A stretch of 63,027 nt of DNA, the filler included, from Sphacelaria rigidula (lineage: Eukaryota): NCBI GenBank assembly GCA_964200075.2. It is 10 parts of 10 records of this genome, joined end to end, with 100 filler letters (N's around TTAATTAATTAA, not from the genome) between each part and the next. Parts side by side here need not be neighbours in the genome. Positions count along the whole stretch, not along the records: positions 37,879 to 44,091 come from CAXNAA020021474.1; 9 more parts are not named here. One strand, written 5' to 3'. Each line of letters begins with the position of its first letter. Position 1 is the stretch's first letter. The notes under the pieces are model-generated. The model was not told the origin of the DNA, ran no database searches, and worked only from the letters and a program-made list of their open reading frames with translations. Position numbers and translations under genes: made by a program. Below, piece after piece: positions 6,314-54,136 of the stretch.

Positions 6314-6479
6314 GCACTCCCGCTTTTTGTGCATTTTCTTTCGGTCCCTATCGTTCTGTCCACGGGCTGGCCGTCTCTATCCCGTCACGAGAGTACGAAA
6401 ATGACACGAATGTCCGGCGTGTCTCGAGGAAACGAGGCCTGTTGGTTCCGTTTTTCTGGTAGCGCGCCGTTTTACGCAG

Positions 6480-7960
6480 TACTTTTGCTTTTCCAGGCCT
6501 TCGGGCACAAGTGTTTTGAGCTGGACGATGCGTGACTGACGGCATGTGGTTGGTTGTGATCAGTACGCTGCATCGCAGCTTGTGCTTCGAGCGAAATTTG
6601 ACTTGGTCGAACCTCGTGTTGGAGAGGGAATCATTGTTCACTAGTCACGTTCCATTTCGCCGCATGACCTATGAGAGCGTTGCCAGATCAGTCACTACCG
6701 TACCCCCATTTTGTTTCGTTGTAGACGATGGTGGTTGTTCGACAGAGGAGAAGGCAGGGGGTAAGGACCAGGTTTCGTTTCCAAGTGTTTTTTCGTTTGT
6801 TCGTTTATTTCGGGGGAGCAGGTCACATCACATGAGAGGGGAACTGTCGACAGTAATGTCGGCAACAACGGGGTGTAGCTAGTACTAGTGGTGTATCTCG
6901 GGAGTGTATCTCCCTAATGACTGGACTGGGTAAAAACGTTGTAAACGGTAGAAACATGAGAAATTGAGTGAATGGGATGTATATCCCGTGCAGTACAAGC
7001 GGGTACGAATTATCCAGGGAAAACGAACGGTGTCCGGCAGGTGGAATGCTGGTTCTGACTTCGTATTTTCCGGCAAGCTGGATCACGTTGCATGTCGGAC
7101 AGCGGCACCGTGGTTGTTGGCGTTTCTCTGGCACTGTGGTAGAAGTGTCGTTCACTGAACCGAGAATGCGGCTTGTTACCCCGAGTGCATAGCTTTGAGA
7201 GTGAGTGTCCTACTCAGCAACATACTGTCTCCAGTCGTGAGAAACCGCGCCGTAGGTGCCCTATGGAGGGAGTACGACTGTTCTTCGAGCAGGCTTTGAG
7301 CTCAACACCCATCGAGAAGCACCTCTCCTCTCGTATGACATCTGGAGATGTTGCCTTGGGGGCGTTTTGCTCGTGTGTTGTCCTGTAGGGGAAGGGCGCA
7401 AATGGACGTGGTGGCCGTTCTTTCCCGGTGTCTGCGTATCCTCATGAAGTTTTTTTTTCCCTCACAAGTACAGAAGTATTATCCTAGTAATGTGCTGGTT
7501 TACAAGGACTCGATCCGGCCTCGCGCCATCGTGAGCGTTACCAGGCAAGGTGTGTCCTGAGTGCTGGTATTGTGACTACGAGCACAGACACTCGTGTAGC
7601 CCTGAAGAAATATTTTTTCGGCTGCCCTTCAGTGCTTCTACGATACACGAAGCATTTTCTGAGGGAGGCTGTTCTAGTAGATGTTGGCCTGTTGTTCCAG
7701 TTGTCATGGGGGGAAACGTGTACCCAGGTCGGTTGTTATGCTGCTCTTGGTGCTGAAATGTTAATTTAGGCTTTTACGGTAGTTGATGTTGGGTTGAAAA
7801 ATGCGCTGCGGAGCAAAGCTTGTTTTTCGCTAACTTCCTGCGCATTTTGAGTTGTAAGCATAGAGGTCTTGGGTACTGGCTACTCAAGTTCTCTGATGAG
7901 CCTCGCTGCGAGATGGAGTGTGGAAACAAGTACAACAGTTGGTGTTACCGCTGCGGGTAG
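6480..7960 (+). pseudogene. Highly decayed Ty3/Gypsy-like pol remnant (RT C-terminus to RNase H)
   Basis: Frame-broken fragments occur in the order expected for Gypsy pol: 'ELDDA', 'LCFERNL..NLVL', 'LLAFL', 'EQALSSTPI..KH', 'DVALGA', 'VVAVLSR', 'ALKKYFFGCP/F', 'ARWSVE..Y..YRCG'. There are many stops and frameshifts. Confidence 0.45.
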
Positions 7961-36800: not shown

Positions 36801-39504
36801 GTCGGTGGATCGCCTCGTGGAGAGCGTCACCGGGCACTCCTCAGACAATCTATTGGATTGAAATCAAGCTTGTGGAACTGCGGACGGTAAATCTGTAGGA
36901 CTCCCCTCATGCGATTTTTGTCATCGGTTCCGTAGAATTGCCGTGGCGTTTTTGAGTGAAGAATTGGTTTTGTAACGCTTACGGATGATGATTTTTGCTC
37001 GAAGCTCCTGGGCCGGTGCAAGAAGATGCTTCGCGGGGTTTGCAATTGAAAGGGTCGGTGCTATCGTCTTTGTGCTGGTACATTGAAAAATGGTGTCCGG
37101 ATGTTGTGGAAGGCGACTTTGTGCGCTTCAGGAACGTACGTGCGCGAGGCGGGAGTAGCGCTCTGCAATAGAATGGGATACTGTCTAGTATACGAGCGAT
37201 GAGCTTCTTTGACATGCATGTCCCGCTTTGAACCGCTGTGCGACCTGGGCCAGTTCGCAGCCATTTTGTTTCGCTCGACCAGGATTGCCCAGCGAAAATT
37301 TGCAGACTTACAAGCTTTTGTTTTCAAGCATCAAACCATCGATGCGAGCGAAGTAACCGACATTTTACGAGGAGGGGGAAAGCAGAAAGTTGAGGCCGTT
37401 TGAAGTCGAAATGCCATACCCCCTACATGAGGACACGAAAGCCGACCTCCACACCAGCCCCAAGACTATTTCGAACATAATAATTGTGCATTGCGTGGCA
37501 GCAGGTTTCAGACCGCATGAAGTGCCCCATGGGGCCGACATTGACGGATGTTGTCCCAAGCGTACCAGTTTTCCAGCTAGTCGGTGCGCTCGACAATCGT
37601 CATTTTGATTCGCATGTAGATATGGCCTCTTGAAACACACCCCTTTTCTGCAGGGGGGGTTACCGAGGCCTCAATCCGATCAACGACGAAAAAAATACCT
37701 CTCTTGACAAGAATGCCCAAAAAACAAAATACGAGACCTTATGCCCCTTTCGTGAAGCCTGCAGGTTTTCGGGGGGGGNNNNNNNNNNNNNNNNNNNNNN
37801 NNNNNNNNNNNNNNNNNNNNNNTTAATTAATTAANNNNNNNNNNNNNNNNNNNNNNNNNNNNNNNNNNNNNNNNNNNNGGCGGTGGGGGGGAAGGGGGGA
37901 GGCGGGGGGGGGGGGGAGGGCGGGGGGCAGGGAGGGGGTGCGGCACGGGGGAGGACTCTGGCCCTTGATACGCACGATATACCCGAAATCCTAACCCAAC
38001 GCTCGAGGGATGATAGTACTTGCCGACACTGCACCGAACGTGCGGGCGGGCGACAGCAACTGTAAGACAGTGAACAAAAAACGTGTCGATTGTTTTACTG
38101 TACTGTCTGTACTGTCGAAAGGGCCGCGCTTCCGATTTCTTTTCTGTATCAGCAACCAGCCGTGTGCACAGGTAGGTCATCGAGAACGTGACAAGGTGCA
38201 GCAGCTCCCCACGCTCGCGTGTAACTACCTTTCCGCTACACACAACATAGCTCCGGAGCTGCATGTATTTTCGTGTCCAGAGCGAAAGTCCACGGAAGTA
38301 CATGTACATGTGATGAATTCGCGTGCGAGGCCATGATGTTTCGTCATTGGATGTCCATACTTCAGACACGTGACAAGCCATCTCGAAAGGAAATGGAAAG
38401 CTTCACCCGTGAGTGATGTCTGTAATTCACAAAGCACCAACAAAAACAACGGAGGGCTGTCAAGTTTATCCTCCGTTTTGGGCGCAACTTCTGCTGCTGC
38501 TGCTGCTGCTGCATGTACAGAGGGTTGGTACACGTCCAGCAGACACCGCTGCGTGCACAGACGCTACGCACCGTTGGAACGGTGTGACGTGCTGTACTGT
38601 GTACAGAAGGGAGCGGCGGGAATTGCGTGCAACTACAAGTACAGAGCTGTTGGTCGGAACGGGGTTGGCAGAATGTATCGGAGAGAGACAGCGCTAGCAG
38701 CCTGAGTTTGCCATAGTCCAACGACCTCAGAAGGTCATGCACATCATTGTGTACCCACGCTAGGAAGTAACGCAGATAGCACAGCAATGGTAACTGGTTG
38801 CTCACAGCACTCAACTCTGGTGATTTCGTCCTGTCCTACGATATATATGGCTTGTAAAAGTTTGCAAAAGCACGCAAAACCATGAGGATCGTATACAGAA
38901 GTACAGTAGCACTTCTTTTTACACTACGGTCGGACACAAGTGGAAAAAAGGTACAATGCCGGCAGTGTCGACACCTGGCATAGGATGGACAAATCCAGAC
39001 CCCTCGAATTGTCGTCGTGTGTAGAATATGCTTGGCAGATGCAGCAGTGCATGGAGCATCACGGATGGCCACGACGAGCTAGATTTAGATCGGCGCATCT
39101 TTCCTCCACACTTACAGGCTGGTCATGATGGGCATAACGCAATCCCCTCTCCCATCCAACATGTTCGCAAATGCACCATTGAAAGACAGAGTACGGTATG
39201 CACGGTACAGGGGATGCAAAAGAAAGTACAGTAATCAAATAGAGACAGCGTGACTCTACTCTGGCCTGTTATCGCTGAAACGTGCACGAGCACACACCGA
39301 GGCGCCCGCCGTTTGTTGGAAGGCCTAACGCACACGAAGACAGCATCACTGAACATGAAGGATCACCGTACACGACATACTTCGACCCACGGCATCGACA
39401 GTGGTACATGCCTGGTACCTTGCTGGAACACAGCATTGCTTGTGATGCACAGCAGCACTGTGACCGCACTGGCAAACAGTTGTCACATTTCACCCAAACC
39501 TCAC

Positions 39505-39630
39505 CTCGACGGTCGGGTTCCCGCGAGAGTCGATGATGTACCTTCCCTTCACAGCCGTGACAGCAGACATGTGGCGGGCAATCACGGGCCGGGCCGCACG
39601 GGCAGCAGCGGTGGATGCAGAGGCAAGCAT
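39505..39630 (-). CDS. ENO: Enolase, first exon, with a mitochondrial-type presequence
   Basis: ACCATG start; MLASASTAAARAARPVIARHMSAVTAVKGRYIIDSRGNPTVE followed by a GTGAG donor. DSRGNPTVE is the enolase N-terminal signature. The ~20-aa extension is Ala/Ser/Arg-rich with no acidic residues. Confidence 0.92.
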
Positions 39631-40238
39631 GGTGCAGTATTCCTTGGGAGATTTCGGGGTGTACTTCGTGGTATTGTGAAGGCTGCGGAGCACTCCCCGT
39701 GCACAACCCCCAAACAGCCGGCGGTGGGCGTCCGGTCCAGTGTGGTTCTAAACGGAGGCTTTTTTTGAAACCGTCATGTGTCGACGCGACCAAAAAAACA
39801 CGGTATCCAAAACGGAGACCGCTTGCTGCTGGAATGCGAACAGTAGTTGTATGCATTTCGAAGTGGCGAGTAGGAGTTTCACAACTTCGTTATTCAAGCG
39901 TAGATCCTGCAGCTGTACACGCACCCCAAACTTCCTCGCTACTAGATTGCGCCGTTTTGTGGTACGCGCAGCTGCTACTGTCGTATTGAGTCTGGCTGGC
40001 TGGCTGCGTTATTTGACCGCAGTTGTTGGGGTTGCGGAGCAACAGCTGTTGTGCCGCCTTTCGATATGCGACGGCGTTCGCGTATCGGTCCCATTCTAGT
40101 AATCCTGCCGGTTTGCACCGGGTCTAAGTCGCGACAAAGACATCAATAATTTTGGATCGAAAATCAAGTAGGTGACTTTCCATTTGAGAAAAGGGCAAAC
40201 CGTACGACTTCCACGAGAAGCAACCGGCTGCTACAACG

Positions 40239-43200
40239 ATGGGGCTTTTGGTTCGACGCGCGGAGCCGGGAGACCAGCGGGGCCTCACCCCTCTCATCAG
40301 CAAAGCGGGTGGCCCAGCTATGGTGAGTACGGAAGAAGAACAGAGAATCCTCGTAAAACCATGGATCGTGTGCCCATTGCAATACCACCGTTGCTGTACC
40401 GTGCTGTATATGCAGTATATATCGTCGATTCTCATTTTCGGGCATGCAAATGGTCAGCCACAACAGTGGAGTGACTCTGCACCTCCGACTCACCACTGAT
40501 ACTCGAACCACAGGGCGTTAGATTTTCCACAAGTCCTCGTTACCCTCGCTCAAAGATCAACTGCATTACTACGCCCTCGTTGAGCTTCTGAGCACTTGAC
40601 TGCGCTTTCTCGCCAAGTCACATCCGTCATGCACGTGAAAGCTGAGAGCATGACATCAGAACAAATCCATGCCGCAGCTTGCCCCCCACTACCGGTATAA
40701 TTGCGGGAATAATATCATTAGATTGTACGGGTCGGCTCTGTCTCCCAGGACTCTGTTACCGATGTACACGCATCACCGCCGTTGTACAGCGAGCAGGCAT
40801 CTACCTCTATGCTCTGCTGCGCAACACAGAAACATTTGCCTTGATACCGACACAGCAAATACGCTAGAGCAACTCCACCCATTCCCCTTCGCTGCCACCT
40901 CGCTCGTGCCGTACACAAAATGCATGCGCAACATGAAACAATGTCGCAGTTCCGTAAGCTATTCGGGTCGTACAACCTGGGCCAGATGATCGAGACGTCT
41001 TACCTATCCGTCAGCGCAGTATTCGTCGCCGACAAAGACAACCGCGGACATGAATCACCCCCACCTGCGACGTCAATAGCGAAACCTCTAGAAACCTTGG
41101 TGGGATTCGCCATTCTTTCAGACAACCCACGCTCCGGTCTTTCCGAAGATTGGCTCGCGTGGTTCTCGGAGACACACGCTCCGGTGGATGCAGAGGTGAC
41201 CATGACCAACACATTGTGGGTGGATTTTGCAGTGGCGTTGGGCACCCAGGCCACTGCGGGTCGGCTGGGGGAACATCGCGACGATGGTTACGAACAAGAG
41301 GAAGAAGCGGCCGGGGTAATCGAGAACATCGTGCGAACGGTCTTCAACACTCTTCCCGAGGTAAACGCTCTGCGCATTTGCGTAAAAAGGCGTTATTTTG
41401 TTGCACTAGTGGTATAGACTGGTATAACAAAGTATTCAAAAACCACGAAATAGGATACTTCGTATGCATGTATCATCTGGATACGAAGTAGGACATTGAT
41501 TTAAGTTAATGTCTGGTGCAAACAATATTTCATGTTACTTCACTCCCCAGTGTACAATCCTTTGGCCAGGTCGTATACTCTCTCAATATCTAATATTTGA
41601 ACATTTACTGGTGCTACTCTAGGCGAAGGATTTATGCTGCTGGTGCGAAGAAACACGCCTGAATGGTTGTGCGCAAAGAACGACCACGATGTCTCGTGGA
41701 GACGTGGCAACGCTACGTCTGCGCAGTTCCTCGTCGTTTGCGGTTTTCTGCTGAAACGACGGTGCCATCCGCGCTGTTTGGTGGTTGACTGCCTGGACAG
41801 GTGGACTACTTGGTTATGAGCCTGCCGGGCAACGAGGATGGGAATGCCAAAAGGGCGGTACCGACGCCCAAGTATTTGTTGCGTGCGTTTGAGGTTCTGG
41901 CGCGGCACGCCGACGCATTGCCCAGCAATCTGGACGAGGCGTACGGCAAACCTTTGCTGTTGCTGTGCGATCGAATGGCGTTCCTACCTACACTCGCTGT
42001 GAGAGCGCAGGACATATGAGCACAGGATAGCTGGTAATACCGCTGCCAGTGGTGCGGGTTCCGTCCCACCCTCACGAACAAACTGTAATCTGCCGACCGC
42101 GATTTTAATATTATGAATCGATAATCGCTTGTATTCTCTTTAGTTTGTCCGTCGATCGTTTGGCGGTCTTTCGGGCATAGTAGTTGTCACCGAGACCTGA
42201 TGAATGAATTCAACACAAGATTTCGTCCCGCGGCTTCATGGAGGCGACACCCACCTTGCTAGATCTGTGTTTATTCGCAGTTGTCGAAAATGTGGGGGAT
42301 GGGGCGAAGTGTTTTTCACAAAAAGAGAGAGAAAGAAACGCAGCAGCTACTGGAGGGAAAAAAAGGACGCGGTTCGATTGCTTTGTGGCAAAAGCCTGAG
42401 CACAAGGTCGTCGCAAAACTGTTTCATTCATATTCGTGTGTACGGCGTACTCGTTTTTTTAATTTCGTGATGACGAGTTTTGTCGACATACCTTCCCTAT
42501 ACTAATACCAGGCACAGGAGTAAGGCAAAACGTTCGAGGGATGTCGTACAACCGTGCTAGCTGAGTTGGTACATTATGCCATTGACCCGGTCATTGACAC
42601 AGGATGCACCTACGTACTTACTTCGTACGCAGGTCCGACCAGCCTGTGTGGAGGACCACGACGACTTGATGCCGGTCTTCGCCGCGCAAAGCGACCTTCT
42701 CAGTGCCACTTACGGGGAGTTCTTCCTGGCGGATATGATAGAGCTTCAAGACGACGAAAACAAGGTGCTATTGGTTGAACAACAAAATCTCATACTCGGG
42801 CTTGCAACTAGCTCTCGCGCGTGACTCAGACGTCACCCAGGTACTGATATATATTTTGTGTCACGACTACCGCCAGCTATAGACTGTGTTCGCAATATAT
42901 ACCGCCTCGCCCGTGTTGCTGACTCATCTGATTTGACATTGAGAGTCTAGAGCCGAACGCCGTGGCTCACAAGGCGCATGCGCCAATCTCGTGCGTCCGA
43001 ATCGCTTGTTCGGGCGTCCATTGGCAACCGCTTGAGTTGGGCTTGTGCCTTGTGGATTTACTCGAACCCAAAGTTTTGTTCGATATCCTGTGAGTGGGTC
43101 ACGTAAGAACCGTTAACGTGATTTTAAAGGCGCTGGTGGCACTGGTGCAAGGGCGAGCGTGTGGACTCTTGGCGACGTCCAGCGATCTGGAGCTCAGCTT

Positions 43201-43973
43201 ACTGCAGAACTGCTTCGAACTTGACAACTACGAGCACCTGGTCAAGGTAGGGCTTGTATTCGGCTTGAAGAACAGACTTGAAACCAAAATATCAACCTCC
43301 CTAAGCTCAACCCGCAATAGTGCAGGCGGAACAAAACCCAAGGCGGGCGGCTACTTCATCCGTTGCGCTCAATTTTCGGCACGTCTGAAGGGTATCACCC
43401 ACCCCCGCCTTGTCGCAACCTCGCGTTAGGCCATGTGTCTAGCTTGCGCTCGTCTCAGAATAGCACCACGGATCTCCCCACCAGTTGCAACGGATATACG
43501 GTGGGACTATCGAACAACGTCGCTGAACCCCTCGCGTCCCCCGGCCCCCCCCCCCCCGCTCCTCCGGACCTCCGGCGCTACTCGCAACCACCCCCCCAAC
43601 CACGCACGCCCCCCCCCCCCCCCCGCCCCATCCTTCCCACAAATTGTTTTGAATCTTGACGACAATGTCTACTCCTACTTGAAAAAACAGCTGATCCCAT
43701 ACTCACCTCCACCTCCTTCCCTTCCTCGGTTCCCTTAGATTCCCCAGGAAACACGGATGCAGATCGCCGCTGGCCGCCGCCGTAAGTCAGACGGCGTTGG
43801 AGGGCCAGGCGAAGCCGATCTTCAGGTGGTTGAGGCGTTACGAGTCCTTGTGCTAGGCCCCCCGGGCGCGGGAAAAACGACGCTAGCCATGGCTTTAGCC
43901 GCTCAGTATGGGTTAATCCTGGTGTCGGTGGATATGGAGGCAAAAGAAGCGGCGGAATTGGGCTCGCAACAAG
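40239..43973 (+). CDS. CFAP61: Cilia- and flagella-associated protein 61 (N-terminal part) continuing into an adenylate-kinase-like P-loop
   Basis: Phase-consistent exons: 40239-40322 (MGLLVRRAEPGD..), 40950-41360 (FG.YNL..MIETS; NTLWVDF; IVRTVFNTLPE), 41801-41998, 42633-42764 (VRPACVEDHDDLMPVF..QS...YGEFFLADMIE.QDDENK, typical of CFAP61), 43130-43246 (FELDNYEHLVK), 43739-43973 (RVLVLGPPGAGKTTLAMALAAQYGL). Confidence 0.9.
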
Positions 43974-44255
43974 GTAAGGAAGTATAGCCCTTTCTCGTTG
44001 TGGGATGGGGGGGGGGGGGGGGGGGAGCACAAAATTATAATTAGATTCAAAAGAGAACAAAAAAAAACAAAACACCACACCAAAAAAAAAANNNNNNNNN
44101 NNNNNNNNNNNNNNNNNNNNNNNNNNNNNNNNNNNTTAATTAATTAANNNNNNNNNNNNNNNNNNNNNNNNNNNNNNNNNNNNNNNNNNNNGTAAAAGCT
44201 CCAAAAATACATTTTTCTGGGTTTTTATTTTTGTCTATTATAAGAAGCGGCCTAA

Positions 44256-51369: not shown

Positions 51370-54136
51370 CTATTCAATAATTCCCCACACAACACCCAGA
51401 TGCACGTGCGTCACCCAGGCACCCATGCAAACCGCCACACCGCCGACAATTCCCCAGTACACAAATCCGTCGGTATTCTGAAGCACGGACAACGCCGGCT
51501 TGACACGGGCGTAAAAATTTGACCACCCGAACGACTCGAAATCGACGAGCGCGATGATGCCCAACAAAAATACAATGAGCCCCCCCACGAGACTGTATCG
51601 CACTGTGGACTGCAACTTCGCGTCAGAAACCACCGTCATCCCTATAGCAGCTCCGATACCCCACCCGACACATAAAGTCGCCAAACGTGACCGGGCGCTC
51701 GCTGCGCTTCCACCGAAACAACTGTGCACACATCTACGGACGCACAACCCAACTAGCGCGGCCGCAAAACATGCGGCAATTACTGAACCAGATACGATCA
51801 GATCTGTCCTGAGCTTGGACGAATCCATGACGACTGAGTGGCTGAACGTCCCGCCCATGATGAAACTGGCAACGACCAAGGCAGCCCACGTAACTGCGAA
51901 AAACGGGTCCTCACAAACAACATCACGGAACACGTCGAAACAGAGAAACAGGCTATGTACTCTCTTCGAGCCTTTCGTTGTTGCAACCAGAGCCGATCGC
52001 TTTGCCACCACCGCCGCCCCTAGTTTCCACACGGCATCGTTGACCACTAGTGCACAGCAAGTCACGGTGCCGGGGTAAAACGCGAACGTGAAGTAGGGCT
52101 TGATCACTTGGCTCAGACTGCGCGAGGAGGCAACATCAGCGCTGGTGGTGGAGCTATTCGTGTTCAACGACGGCGAGACAGCGTAGGGATCTCCCAAGTA
52201 CAGTACTCCCACCAACGCGAGCCAAAAGCTGAAGCCCACGATCTCCAGCACCCAGAACAAGCGCCACCTGACCTTTTTCGTCCGGAGTAGCATCATCATC
52301 TTCTCGTCCTGGCGGCCACCACGACGCGTGAAACCATCCAAATCGAGACAGGAAAGTACAAGAACATAGCCCTTTGAAACGTGCATACGCTGACGGAAAA
52401 CGAAACACTCACTGGGCTTGTCTACATGAACGCAAGTGTTTTCGTTTTTTTCGCGCCAAACGAAAGAAACGAGTAGTCTATACAAAAATATTCAGAAAAC
52501 GCGACACGGAACACCACGCGTATCTCAGCGACTGACGGGTACTGCTATCGCAGAATAGTTCAGCTTCCAGCATCCCCCCAAGTCAATTGCTGCGCTCTGG
52601 TCGTCAAACTGATACATCGTCGGCCAACAAAGGAGAATTGTTCGTGGGTTCGAATCCCGATACCGATTTCCGTCGTGTAGAGCGTGAGAACGTAGCTTAA
52701 CCAGAAAATCCATGAAAGTTGACGGGCTGCGGTAGTGCCGACAGTCATCATCCAATGCTGCACAGCTAATTGCAAGGCACGTACGCGTACCGGAGGGAGA
52801 ATTTGATTATTCACTGAGGCTAGGGACTCATCTTCAGGAAGAGGGCGGAGTACAAGTATGGCGAAAAAATACAATCCCCGCTCGCACTCACCACATCATT
52901 GATGAAAAGCACCGTTGCCGCGCCGGTCACCAGCTCGGCATTCCCGATCGCATCGGCAAAGAGCACACACATGGAAGCATATACCAGCAGGAACATCGAG
53001 CACAGGAGGAAGAATCCGAATGCGCGGCGCAAGACGGAACGCCGCGAGAACAAGACGAGAACATAACCCGCGCGGATATCCGGCGCCGCGATGACCACCA
53101 TGAGGTACATGGCCAAGCCAACCGAAAAGATTGAGTAGCTCGTGCCTTCCTCTGCGTCTCCCGCGTTGAAAATTAGCGAGATGTAGGACACGATTTGCGT
53201 CTGTGTAGGGGAGGGGACGATGCAAAAACACTGGGAGGTGACTTTCGATACCGAAAACCTTGACATTTCCAGCTTTTCAACAGACCCAAGCTCGGTTTTT
53301 TCCGTCTGCGTCAGCAACATGCTCAGGAATTAAGCAAAGCATTAGCATTTGCGCTACGGTACTGAGACTATTTCACTACGTTCCTTCACGTGGTGCTGCG
53401 CGCCTTTCCTCGAGTTTGCTGCAGCCCAACAATGCCTCTCGAGAACATACCGAGTGTATTGATGACATCCCATCTATTCTGCTCGCCAGTCTACACCTTT
53501 CGGCATGAGTGGGCGCATCAGCCGGGGTCATACAGGAGGAAGGGCAACACACACAGGAGTTCTTCATGTTTCATGTTGTTTTAGTACCCCACCTCCCTTA
53601 CTCGGTGCTTGTCTTCCTTGTCACGAAAAGATTTCAGCGGTCCCTTTTTTTTGTCGATGGTGAAGTCGAATATTATGTTCCCACGACAAAGTCGCTCTCC
53701 ACTGTTGGGCACGATGTGAGAAAAATCCCAGATCGTGTGATTCACCGAGATTCGAATCCCACGTCCCAATTGTATGAGGGTTTGAGGTTATCAACTGAGC
53801 CACCAGGGCGACCGGCTAATAGTGCCGTTTGATATATCAGTCACACCAACGAAGCAGAACAGTCCACAGGATGATGCAGTCAAGGAATATCATGGGTAAT
53901 GTACTCATATCACGCGTTTTTTTTTTCCCCTCTTACCGCGAGTGTGATCCAGCCGACCGCCATGTCTGTCGCAGTGACATCTTCGTCCGACGGCGACTCC
54001 TTTACCCCACAAGCCCACAAGTACACAGAATCAGGCATATGCTGCACCAGTTTTTCCTCCATGCTTCTGTCTTGACCGTCTCTCCCTGTATCATCGCCTT
54101 GGCTGTCATTCGTCTTATCGCCATGTCCGTCGCTAC
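51370..54136 (-). CDS. Uncharacterised polytopic membrane protein (partial, at least 3 exons)
   Basis: Phase-consistent exons: 54136-53937 (..MPDSVYLWACG..AVGWITLA), 53200-52892 (TQIVSYISLIF...GAATVLFINDV), 52308-51370 (DEKMMM..., many hydrophobic segments). Confidence 0.8.
53453..53816 (-). mobile_element. Full-length tRNA-derived SINE (~360 bp) in an intron
   Basis: The minus strand begins GCCGGTCGCCCTGGTGGCTCAGTTGA (A box) ... GGATTCGAATCTC (B box). The body and 3' end (CCGAAAGGTGTAGACTGG..AGAATAGATGGGA) are shared with the other copies. Confidence 0.88.

What the first reader, a model, noticed from the sequence alone, without database searches (positions are those of the whole stretch)
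43130..43973. CFAP61 carrying an in-frame adenylate-kinase-like domain
Seen: after the CFAP61 N-terminal exon ending FELDNYEHLVK (phase 0), the next exon (polypyrimidine tract + TAG acceptor at 43738, phase 0) encodes RVLVLGPPGAGKTTLAMALAAQYGLILVS. Established: this is the NMP/adenylate-kinase beta1-P-loop-alpha1 pattern (GPPGxGKxT...LA..YG). CFAP61/FAP61 is a calmodulin- and spoke-associated complex / radial spoke 3 protein, and as I know it in animals and Chlamydomonas it has no such domain here. Inference: a lineage-specific fusion that tethers an ATP-regenerating or nucleotide-sensing module to the radial spoke. This is the strongest candidate for an undescribed system in the window. The contig ends before the NMP-binding and LID regions, so catalytic competence cannot be judged.
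Basis: partly seen in the sequence, partly recalled or inferred. Interest (0 to 1): 0.7.

Follow-up and report, generated by a model that had tools for sequence, protein, structure and literature searches.

The report
Radial-spoke protein carrying adenylate-kinase domain
This brown-algal gene for the flagellar scaffold protein CFAP61 has an adenylate-kinase domain inserted into it, an old feature shared with water moulds and other stramenopiles, where the domain looks like a working ATP-recycling enzyme, while in brown algae it has lost the AMP-binding residues and more likely only binds or senses nucleotide.

Summary
The fusion is real. Five clean exons encode the CFAP61 N-terminal domain; a sixth (43739-43973) adds a 34-residue linker and the start of an adenylate-kinase (AK) fold. 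Nine of 12 close homologues, brown-algal where named, carry the same P-loop at the same place; the other three end earlier. It is not a narrow oddity: an AK domain sits in this linker in Tribonema, Triparma (also one transcript-derived ORF) and named oomycetes (1-4 copies), with eroded remnants in unnamed relatives. It is absent from the pelagophyte, alveolate, cryptophyte and animal proteins seen. Oomycete and Triparma domains keep all 14 AK residues checked. Brown-algal and Tribonema domains keep 5 of 14: the ATP side (K13, T15, R123, R167) stays, the AMP side (T31, G32, D33, R88, Q92, R156) goes. Yet the domain's first half is 60% identical between the two classes. Best reading: an ancestral stramenopile AK tethered at the radial-spoke-3 base that became a conserved pseudo-kinase in this lineage. 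Pfam annotation already shows the architecture; eight literature searches found no description. The junction is not shown in this organism's RNA. New variant of a known kind.

The parts
40239..40322 (+). CFAP61 exon 1 (ATG, 28 codons, phase 0)
   Evidence: 79% identical to P0006 residues 1-28; GTGAGT donor
40950..41360 (+). CFAP61 exon 2 (137 codons), N-terminal domain
   Evidence: PF16092 E 4.8e-9; AG/GT, no stop
41801..41998 (+). CFAP61 exon 3 (66 codons), N-terminal domain
   Evidence: 66-73% identical to brown-algal homologues; AG/GT, no stop
42633..42764 (+). CFAP61 exon 4 (44 codons), conserved VEDHDDL motif
   Evidence: PF16092 E 6e-15; 41-43 of 44 identical to Ectocarpus, Scytosiphon, Hapterophycus, Laminaria homologues
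43130..43246 (+). CFAP61 exon 5 (39 codons), end of the N-terminal domain
   Evidence: PF16092 E 5.5e-6, profile positions 224-263 of 264
43247..43738 (+). 492-nt phase-0 intron with C-rich repeats and a polypyrimidine tract
   Evidence: joining is inferred from homology, not seen in RNA
43739..43840 (+). exon 6, first part: 34-residue linker
   Evidence: matches the linker of P0010, P0006, P0009; the equivalent region of P0086 is low-confidence in the AlphaFold2 model
43841..43973 (+). exon 6, second part: AK-fold beta1, P-loop (GPPGAGKTT), helix 1, beta2 and an altered first AMP-site motif; ends in phase 1
   Evidence: ADK E 4.1e-4; 24-33 of 44 identical to nine brown-algal-type homologues, 24/41 Tribonema, 15/42 Triparma, 12/42 P. 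infestans
43974..44091 (+). start of the next intron and end of the contig; four further CFAP61 exons (P0006 residues 748-1080) lie on another contig, G000:C15541, minus strand
   Evidence: the exons for the rest of the AK fold were not found

Best explanation
This is the single-copy CFAP61 (FAP61) gene of a brown alga. An adenylate-kinase domain sits in the variable linker after the N-terminal domain. SHOWN: exon structure, conserved architecture, residue pattern, distribution. INFERRED: (1) The insertion happened once, early in stramenopiles, from the tandem-AK family that resembles plant chloroplast AK. (2) CFAP61 builds the base of radial spoke 3 beside inner dyneins d and g, so the domain hangs there on flexible linkers. 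(3) Where intact (oomycetes, Parmales) it turns 2 ADP into ATP + AMP next to these dyneins. (4) In brown algae and Tribonema it is a pseudo-kinase: it keeps the P-loop lysine and the ATP-side arginines, has lost the AMP-acceptor site, and is still conserved. It most likely binds ATP or ADP without phosphoryl transfer, acting as a nucleotide-dependent docking or signalling element at the spoke base. My odds: fusion real 0.95; no normal AK activity in this copy 0.8; given that, nucleotide binding retained about 0.6.
For:: 9 of 12 closest homologues have the P-loop right after CFAP61_N; the other 3 end before the site. P0006 = CFAP61_N 74-327, ADK 368-562 (E 2.9e-14, over cut-off), CFAP61_dimer 1454-1614; same site in Tribonema, two Triparma, an MMETSP transcript ORF marked complete (P0044) and named oomycetes; 29 of 29 named oomycete proteins have at least one domain with all 14 checked residues; 7 of 8 Parmales-like proteins have 14/14 (the eighth 13/14); P0006, P0009 and Tribonema have 5/14. 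maps the brown-algal domain on E. coli AK over its whole length (E 4e-17): K13, T15, R119, R123, R124, D158, R167 kept; T31V, G32D, D33A, R36K, D84E, R88A, D159G, R156 changed. PMC11313852 (passages): replacing any one active-site arginine drops kcat from 330 to 0.28-2.44 per s; R36, R88 and R156 touch the acceptor nucleotide, K13 and R123 cap ATP; first half of the domain 60/100 identical between a brown alga and Tribonema, against 142/269 for the N-terminal domain. AlphaFold2 model of P0086 has a complete AK fold (351-530, pLDDT about 94; Foldseek 1zak TM 0.80) between low-confidence linkers. AK signal in 40 of 85 rows of one clade, 0 of 101 outside; inserts of two unnamed subclades match AK profiles at 94-99%; four control groups under 1%. 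Location of CFAP61: PMC10266980 and 10.1101/2025.05.19.654877 (passages).
Against: The junction was not seen in RNA of this organism. The second half of the domain is missing from this assembly, so R88, R123, R156 and R167 are judged from only two full brown-algal-type gene models and Tribonema. Five NCBI brown-algal models (P0002, P0003, P0008, P0010, P0011) stop in mid-domain at one intron, and in Scytosiphon a second model (P0014) carries the rest: probably an annotation split, not verified. Single origin is weak: the 18 CFAP61-borne domains form one side of a branch at only 18/92, the brown-algal branch is very long, and the 85-row clade has no usable support value (parent node 0.66). The same tree with FastTree placed the degenerate domains elsewhere. 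No binding or activity data exist; kept ATP-side residues could be structural. A second sample shows K69N at the R36 position in one contig, which may mean slack constraint or an assembly error.
Confidence: 0.68

Rival explanations
1. The brown-algal domain is a purely structural module: an AK fold kept as a docking surface on radial spoke 3, binding no nucleotide.
For: Several lineages keep a roughly 200-residue AK-derived insert with no recognisable P-loop (22-sequence subclade); pelagophytes lost it altogether (inserts of 2-26 residues in 6 of 7), so it is dispensable in some flagellates. Two of three AK9 domains in mouse RS3 appear blocked by LRRC23 (10.1101/2025.05.19.654877, passages). 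A new conserved motif (LEEAIVMA) replaces the RT..QA segment in brown algae and Tribonema.
Against: K13 is kept in all 10 brown-algal-type and Tribonema proteins, and R119, R123, R124, R167 in all 3 that reach them, while the AMP side is lost: a one-sided pattern that a scaffold would not need.
Confidence: 0.17
2. The domain is an active enzyme with changed chemistry: a slow AK, a kinase for another small acceptor, or an ATPase switch. The P-loop now reads GKTT and the D84 position holds E.
For: Canonical Walker A GKT and an acidic residue at the end of the fourth strand; the acceptor-binding subdomain is conserved in length and sequence across brown algae and Tribonema.
Against: R88, R156 and D159 are all changed; single arginine changes cost over 100-fold in E. 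coli AK. Pfam, PDB and Atlas searches rank AK families first and show no other kinase family over the whole domain.
Confidence: 0.1
3. In this organism the P-loop exon is not spliced into CFAP61 (separate gene, skipped exon), or the gene is truly split in mid-domain.
For: No RNA support here; five NCBI models end in mid-domain; pelagophyte CFAP61 lacks the domain.
Against: Same exon order, phase and linker in 9 homologues; contiguous models P0006, P0009, P0016; transcript-derived P0044; the exon's best matches are CFAP61-borne domains; no stop or frameshift in two DNA samples.
Confidence: 0.05

Closest known systems
CFAP61/FAP61 (CSC subunit, base of radial spoke 3; PDB 8j07_d0, 9d2f_J, 9fqr_Xg, 8glv_LZ)
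   Same: N-terminal domain PF16092, oxidoreductase-like domain and PF23150 in the same order in full-length relatives; best sequence and fold matches.
   Different: The human linker of about 120 residues (266-385) is replaced by 280-380 residues holding one AK domain, or up to about 880 residues holding four in Saprolegniales. Ciliates have a different, helical insert of about 400 residues (PMC4395127, passages; its position was not checked).
AK7 and AK9 of radial spoke 3; AK8/FAP385 of spokes 1 and 2
   Same: AK domains on a radial spoke, proposed to buffer ATP/ADP; some of them blocked or degenerate. The AK8 N-terminal domain shows a similar GKTT loop and no R88; the Atlas ranks an AK8 cluster first for the brown-algal domain (0.91).
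   Different: Those are separate polypeptides in the head and neck; here the domain is part of the base protein. Intact CFAP61-borne domains group with stramenopile, cryptophyte and red-algal tandem AKs; AK7, AK8 and AK9 were not in these trees.
CPC1/SPEF2, FAP42 and Hydin: axonemal scaffolds with built-in AK-like domains
   Same: An AK-like domain fused into a structural axonemal protein (PMC6678824, PMC4395127, passages; Pfam Hydin_ADK PF17213).
   Different: They belong to the central apparatus, not to a spoke on the outer doublet, and are other protein families.
Maize chloroplast adenylate kinase (1zak) and E. coli AK
   Same: Best single-domain sequence and fold match of the intact domain (E 1.5e-62; TM 0.80).
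   Different: The brown-algal copy has lost the AMP-site residues.

Membership tests
CFAP61/FAP61 | N-terminal domain PF16092 | tested here: met
   three exons hit it; the only locus in the assembly, 2 matches, both on this contig
CFAP61/FAP61 | Middle and oxidoreductase-like domains | tested here: met
   four exons on G000:C15541, 55-86% identical to P0006 748-1080; linkage to this contig is inferred
CFAP61/FAP61 | C-terminal PF23150 domain | tested here: inconclusive
   not found in the fragmented assembly; present in P0006, P0013, P0014, P0015
CFAP61/FAP61 | Localises to the base of radial spoke 3 | not testable with these tools
   taken from animals, Chlamydomonas and Tetrahymena
Adenylate kinase (EC 2.7.4.3, PF00406) | AK fold over its whole length | tested here: met
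   brown-algal-type relatives over the Pfam cut-off (E 3e-14) and aligned to PDB AKs end to end; the window holds only the first 45 residues (E 4e-4, under cut-off)
Adenylate kinase (EC 2.7.4.3, PF00406) | P-loop with K13 and T15 | tested here: met
   GPPGAGKTT in the window; G14 is T
Adenylate kinase (EC 2.7.4.3, PF00406) | AMP-site motif T31-G32-D33 and R36 | tested here: not met
   V-D-M and K in the window's exon; T31, G32, D33 changed in all 9 brown-algal-type homologues, R36 kept in 1 of 9
Adenylate kinase (EC 2.7.4.3, PF00406) | D84-G-F-P-R88 and Q92 | tested here: not met
   E-G-V/I-G-x in the 7 brown-algal-type homologues that reach it, and altered in Tribonema; exon absent from this assembly
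Adenylate kinase (EC 2.7.4.3, PF00406) | LID arginines R123, R156, R167 with D158/D159 | tested here: not met
   R123 and R167 kept, R156 and one aspartate lost in P0006, P0009, P0016; not visible in this assembly
Adenylate kinase (EC 2.7.4.3, PF00406) | Catalyses 2 ADP = ATP + AMP | not testable with these tools
   no assay; predicted absent here, present in oomycete and Parmales copies
AK7/AK8/AK9 ciliary adenylate kinases | Descent from these subfamilies | tested here: inconclusive
   AK8 leads the PDB list only by summing two domains (50 + 45 bits, against 68 for one bacterial domain); no AK7/8/9 sequences were available for the trees

The most novel reading that the evidence does not exclude
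Stramenopiles hard-wire adenylate kinase into the base of radial spoke 3, and lineages tuned the module: up to three intact copies in oomycetes with long-swimming zoospores, one in Parmales, none in pelagophytes. In brown and yellow-green algae it became a dedicated ATP/ADP sensor, a pseudo-kinase whose lid closure on nucleotide reports the local energy state to inner dyneins d and g.
Probability: 0.3. Interest if true: 0.72.

Novelty: new variant of a known kind. Interest (0 to 1): 0.5.

Why it matters
Radial spoke 3 was recently proposed to be a metabolic hub that buffers ATP through AK7 and AK9. An independent fusion of an AK domain into its base protein is evolutionary support for that link, and places the activity at a new site, beside dyneins d and g. 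The natural series (multi-copy intact, single intact, ATP-side-only, eroded, lost) makes an open question testable: do axonemal AK domains matter as catalysts, as nucleotide sensors or as scaffolds? Ectocarpus is a laboratory model with flagellated cells (own knowledge), so the domain can be deleted. It also corrects annotation: several of these proteins are filed simply as 'adenylate kinase', and brown-algal models are cut in mid-domain. The limits: AK domains in axonemal scaffolds are a known theme, and the architecture is already visible in Pfam annotation.

Tried and rejected
RNA: no RNA holder listed for the stretch; two RNA-guessed runs of the same species label (X5, X6) gave no cover over the exons; this says nothing either way. 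DNA runs X1 and X3 cover the exons but break at the C-rich repeat (43543-43608) and gave no usable extension past the contig end. Own-genome searches for the rest of the AK domain and for PF23150 found nothing in a 27,214-contig assembly. Whether this alga has AK7 or AK9 (a 'fusion replaces them' idea) could not be settled: PF00406 gave 4 loci from 10 candidates, read as short exons of ordinary AK or UMP-CMP-kinase type; Dpy-30 gave 2 loci, one RSP2-like, one unclassified. I first read P. infestans PITG_18373 (FAP61) and PITG_18377 (an AK) as split pieces of one gene; rejected, because full P. infestans models hold both parts (P0049) and other oomycetes have a separate AK-bearing paralogue next door. 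Cluster members could not be listed, so unnamed proteins are placed only by tree. Phage search with the exon: no match. Whole-protein Atlas search: only plain CFAP61 clusters at 0.87. Inserts of the Cafeteria-containing group match AK profiles only at 16-36%: not counted as remnants, though P0081 hits AAA_17 at E 6.6e-7. The brown-algal domain itself was not folded: no whole protein under 1,200 residues holds it complete. Earlier findings of the scan: three look-ups, nothing.
Full report
Observation. The finding lies on one 6,213-base contig (window 37879-44091, G000:C21474) of a 244-Mb, 27,214-contig assembly; the window is a string of contigs joined by spacers. On the plus strand six exons (40239-40322, 40950-41360, 41801-41998, 42633-42764, 43130-43246, 43739-43973) have GT donors, AG acceptors and no stops. 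Three hit CFAP61_N, and this is the only such locus found in the assembly. The sixth exon follows the strongest polypyrimidine acceptor of the region and encodes a 34-residue linker, then beta1, the P-loop GPPGAGKTT, helix 1 and beta2 of an NMP-kinase fold. Alone it scores under the Pfam ADK cut-off (E 4.1e-4).

Is the exon part of CFAP61? Searching with exon 2 gave 12 proteins, brown-algal where named (Scytosiphon, Hapterophycus, Laminaria, two Ectocarpus, Discosporangium, Choristocarpus); the organism is therefore very probably a brown alga. Nine of the 12 have the same P-loop directly after the N-terminal domain; three end before that point. Two are full length: P0006 reads CFAP61_N 74-327, ADK 368-562 (E 2.9e-14), CFAP61_dimer 1454-1614. 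The window's exon matches these domains at E 1e-11 to 1e-21 and stand-alone AK proteins at 1.6e-5 at best, and its linker matches too. Four later CFAP61 exons lie on another contig; the exons for the rest of the AK fold are not in the assembly as searched. The junction itself was not seen in RNA of this organism. Against a simple picture: five NCBI models stop in mid-domain at one intron, and a second Scytosiphon model carries the rest. I read this as an annotation split because P0006, P0009 and Tribonema P0016 run through, but these are gene models too.

How widespread. A search with the C-terminal part of P0006, which holds no AK, returned 25 proteins; of the 21 with CFAP61_N, 8 carry PF00406, among them Tribonema and Phytophthora kernoviae. 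A profile that includes the AK region, and so favours fused forms, gave 184 hits, 120 listed: 55 carry both PF16092 and PF00406, 12 carry PF16092 without it. Named carriers: Phytophthora, Plasmopara, Nothophytophthora, Pythium, Globisporangium, Lagenidium (two AK domains in the CFAP61 linker), Aphanomyces, Achlya, Saprolegnia (three or four), Triparma (one), and an MMETSP transcript ORF marked complete (P0044). Named non-carriers: a pelagophyte, crocodile, pangolins, Vitrella, Perkinsus, Baffinella; Cafeteria has a long insert without a clear match. An unbiased sample (150 best of 1,494 representatives, query without AK) had 9 proteins with an AK domain at 50 bits or more and 20 with any signal (one of the two HMMs was built partly from degenerate CFAP61 domains, so its scores on these are circular). 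In a FastTree of 186 CFAP61 cores (216 passed the occupancy filter, 30 near-duplicates were dropped; the linker was left out), AK signal occurs in 40 of 85 rows of the clade that holds all named stramenopiles and in 0 of 101 rows outside. That clade has no usable support value; the subclade with oomycetes and ochrophytes has 0.977. Profile comparison shows that the roughly 200-residue inserts of an unnamed 22-sequence subclade and of a 4-sequence group are eroded AK domains (94-99%), while alveolate, animal-like and two other groups score under 1% and the Cafeteria group 16-36%. In an IQ-TREE of 40 domains the 18 CFAP61-borne ones form one side of a branch at 18/92: one origin is allowed, not shown. 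Intact copies resemble maize chloroplast AK (E 1.5e-62) and the tandem AKs of stramenopiles, cryptophytes and red algae.

Where it sits. Human CFAP61 aligns to a fused relative at 125-265 and again from 386, so the domain replaces a variable linker, which in other lineages ranges from a few residues to about a thousand. An AlphaFold2 model of P0086 (Parmales-like, 41-row alignment, mean pLDDT 81.8) shows a complete AK fold at 351-530 (pLDDT about 94) between low-confidence linkers (316-347, 537-565); Foldseek returns the four solved CFAP61 chains, then 1zak (TM 0.80). CFAP61, CFAP91 and CFAP251 build the base of radial spoke 3, which associates with inner dyneins d and g (PMC10266980, passages; 10.1101/2025.05.19.654877, passages).

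Is it an enzyme? I scored 14 positions (E. coli K13, T15, T31, G32, D33, R36, D84, R88, Q92, R123, R156, D158, D159, R167; the six basic residues and D84 from PMC11313852, passages; the rest from my own knowledge, mapped through). All 29 named oomycete proteins have at least one domain with 14/14; 7 of 8 Parmales-like proteins have 14/14. P0006, P0009 and Tribonema have 5/14. The loss is one-sided: K13, T15, R119, R123, R124 and R167 stay; T31, G32, D33, R88, Q92 and R156 go; R36 is mostly K and D84 is E. The window's own exon already shows V-D-M...K in the first AMP motif. In E. coli AK one arginine change lowers kcat from 330 to 0.28-2.44 per s, so normal AK activity is unlikely. Yet the domain is not drifting: its first half is 60/100 identical between a brown alga and Tribonema, against 53% for the N-terminal domain, and 59-61% between Discosporangium and other brown algae, against 71-74%. 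One contig of a second sample has N at the R36 position.

Mechanism. Shown: architecture, distribution, residue pattern. Inferred: an early stramenopile gained an AK tethered at the spoke 3 base, recycling ADP beside dyneins d and g; oomycetes multiplied it; several lineages eroded or lost it; brown algae and Tribonema kept the fold and the ATP site as a pseudo-kinase that most likely binds ATP or ADP and serves as a nucleotide-dependent docking or signalling element (0.68 overall). Rivals: pure scaffold (0.17), changed enzyme (0.10), not spliced or truly split (0.05).

What is known. AKs at radial spoke 3 are established: four AKs co-purify with the CSC (PMC4395127, passages); AK7 and AK9 form the head, and FAP61 knockout halves salt-resistant axonemal AK activity (PMC12399478, passages). 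AK-like domains inside axonemal scaffolds are known for CPC1/SPEF2 and FAP42 (PMC6678824, passages). So the thing works like these, is a true CFAP61, and is not a member of active AKs in this lineage. Eight searches of the open-access library showed no description of an AK domain within CFAP61; 'CFAP61' with 'oomycete' returned 0 papers. The P. infestans flagellar survey lists FAP61 as uncharacterised (PMC3471859, passages and supplement rows); the P. sojae fusion catalogue lists only an AK-protein kinase fusion (PMC2705460, passages and two supplements); PMC5795050 has no mention (passages). Not seen: the alignment figure and one supplementary file of PMC4395127, bioRxiv supplements, the 2014 brown-algal flagellar proteome paper (reference only), and subscription journals; any of these may mention the domain. 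The architecture is already visible in public Pfam annotation.

Verdict. Real, conserved and apparently undescribed in print; a new variant of a known kind. Interest 0.5; if the sensor reading holds (probability 0.3), 0.72.

Noticed in passing
window 39502-39630, minus strand: First exon of an enolase (Enolase_N E 1.8e-4) with an Ala/Arg-rich N-terminal extension that looks like a mitochondrial targeting peptide (my reading; stramenopile mitochondrial glycolysis is the subject of PMC5715807, seen as a listing only). It lies head to head with CFAP61, 609 bases between start codons. Run X5 has contigs of depth about 5,000 over 39530-39652. No further enolase exon was found on this contig.
   Followed up: partly
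P. infestans PITG_18377, listed as a flagellar AK beside FAP61 PITG_18373 (PMC3471859 supplement), may be this gene.
   Followed up: partly
proteins P0038, P0039, P0041, P0046, P0053, P0069, P0095: In Saprolegniales the first of 3-4 AK repeats is degenerate in a similar way (GKTT or GKST loop, no T31-G32-D33, no R88), in front of intact repeats: a parallel or shared decay.
   Followed up: partly
proteins P0002/P0014, P0003, P0008, P0010, P0011: Five NCBI brown-algal CFAP61 models end at the same intron in mid-domain; probably a shared annotation fault.
   Followed up: no
window, whole: The window is a string of roughly 6.2-kb contigs joined by N/TTAATTAATTAA/N spacers; neighbours across a spacer are not genomic neighbours.
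   Followed up: yes
L018 (G000:C15541) about 6430-6680: A 43-base tandem repeat, about six copies, upstream of the CFAP61 C-terminal exons (seen).
   Followed up: no
window 51370-52491, minus strand: A 373-codon stop-free frame with several hydrophobic stretches and no Pfam hit.
   Followed up: no
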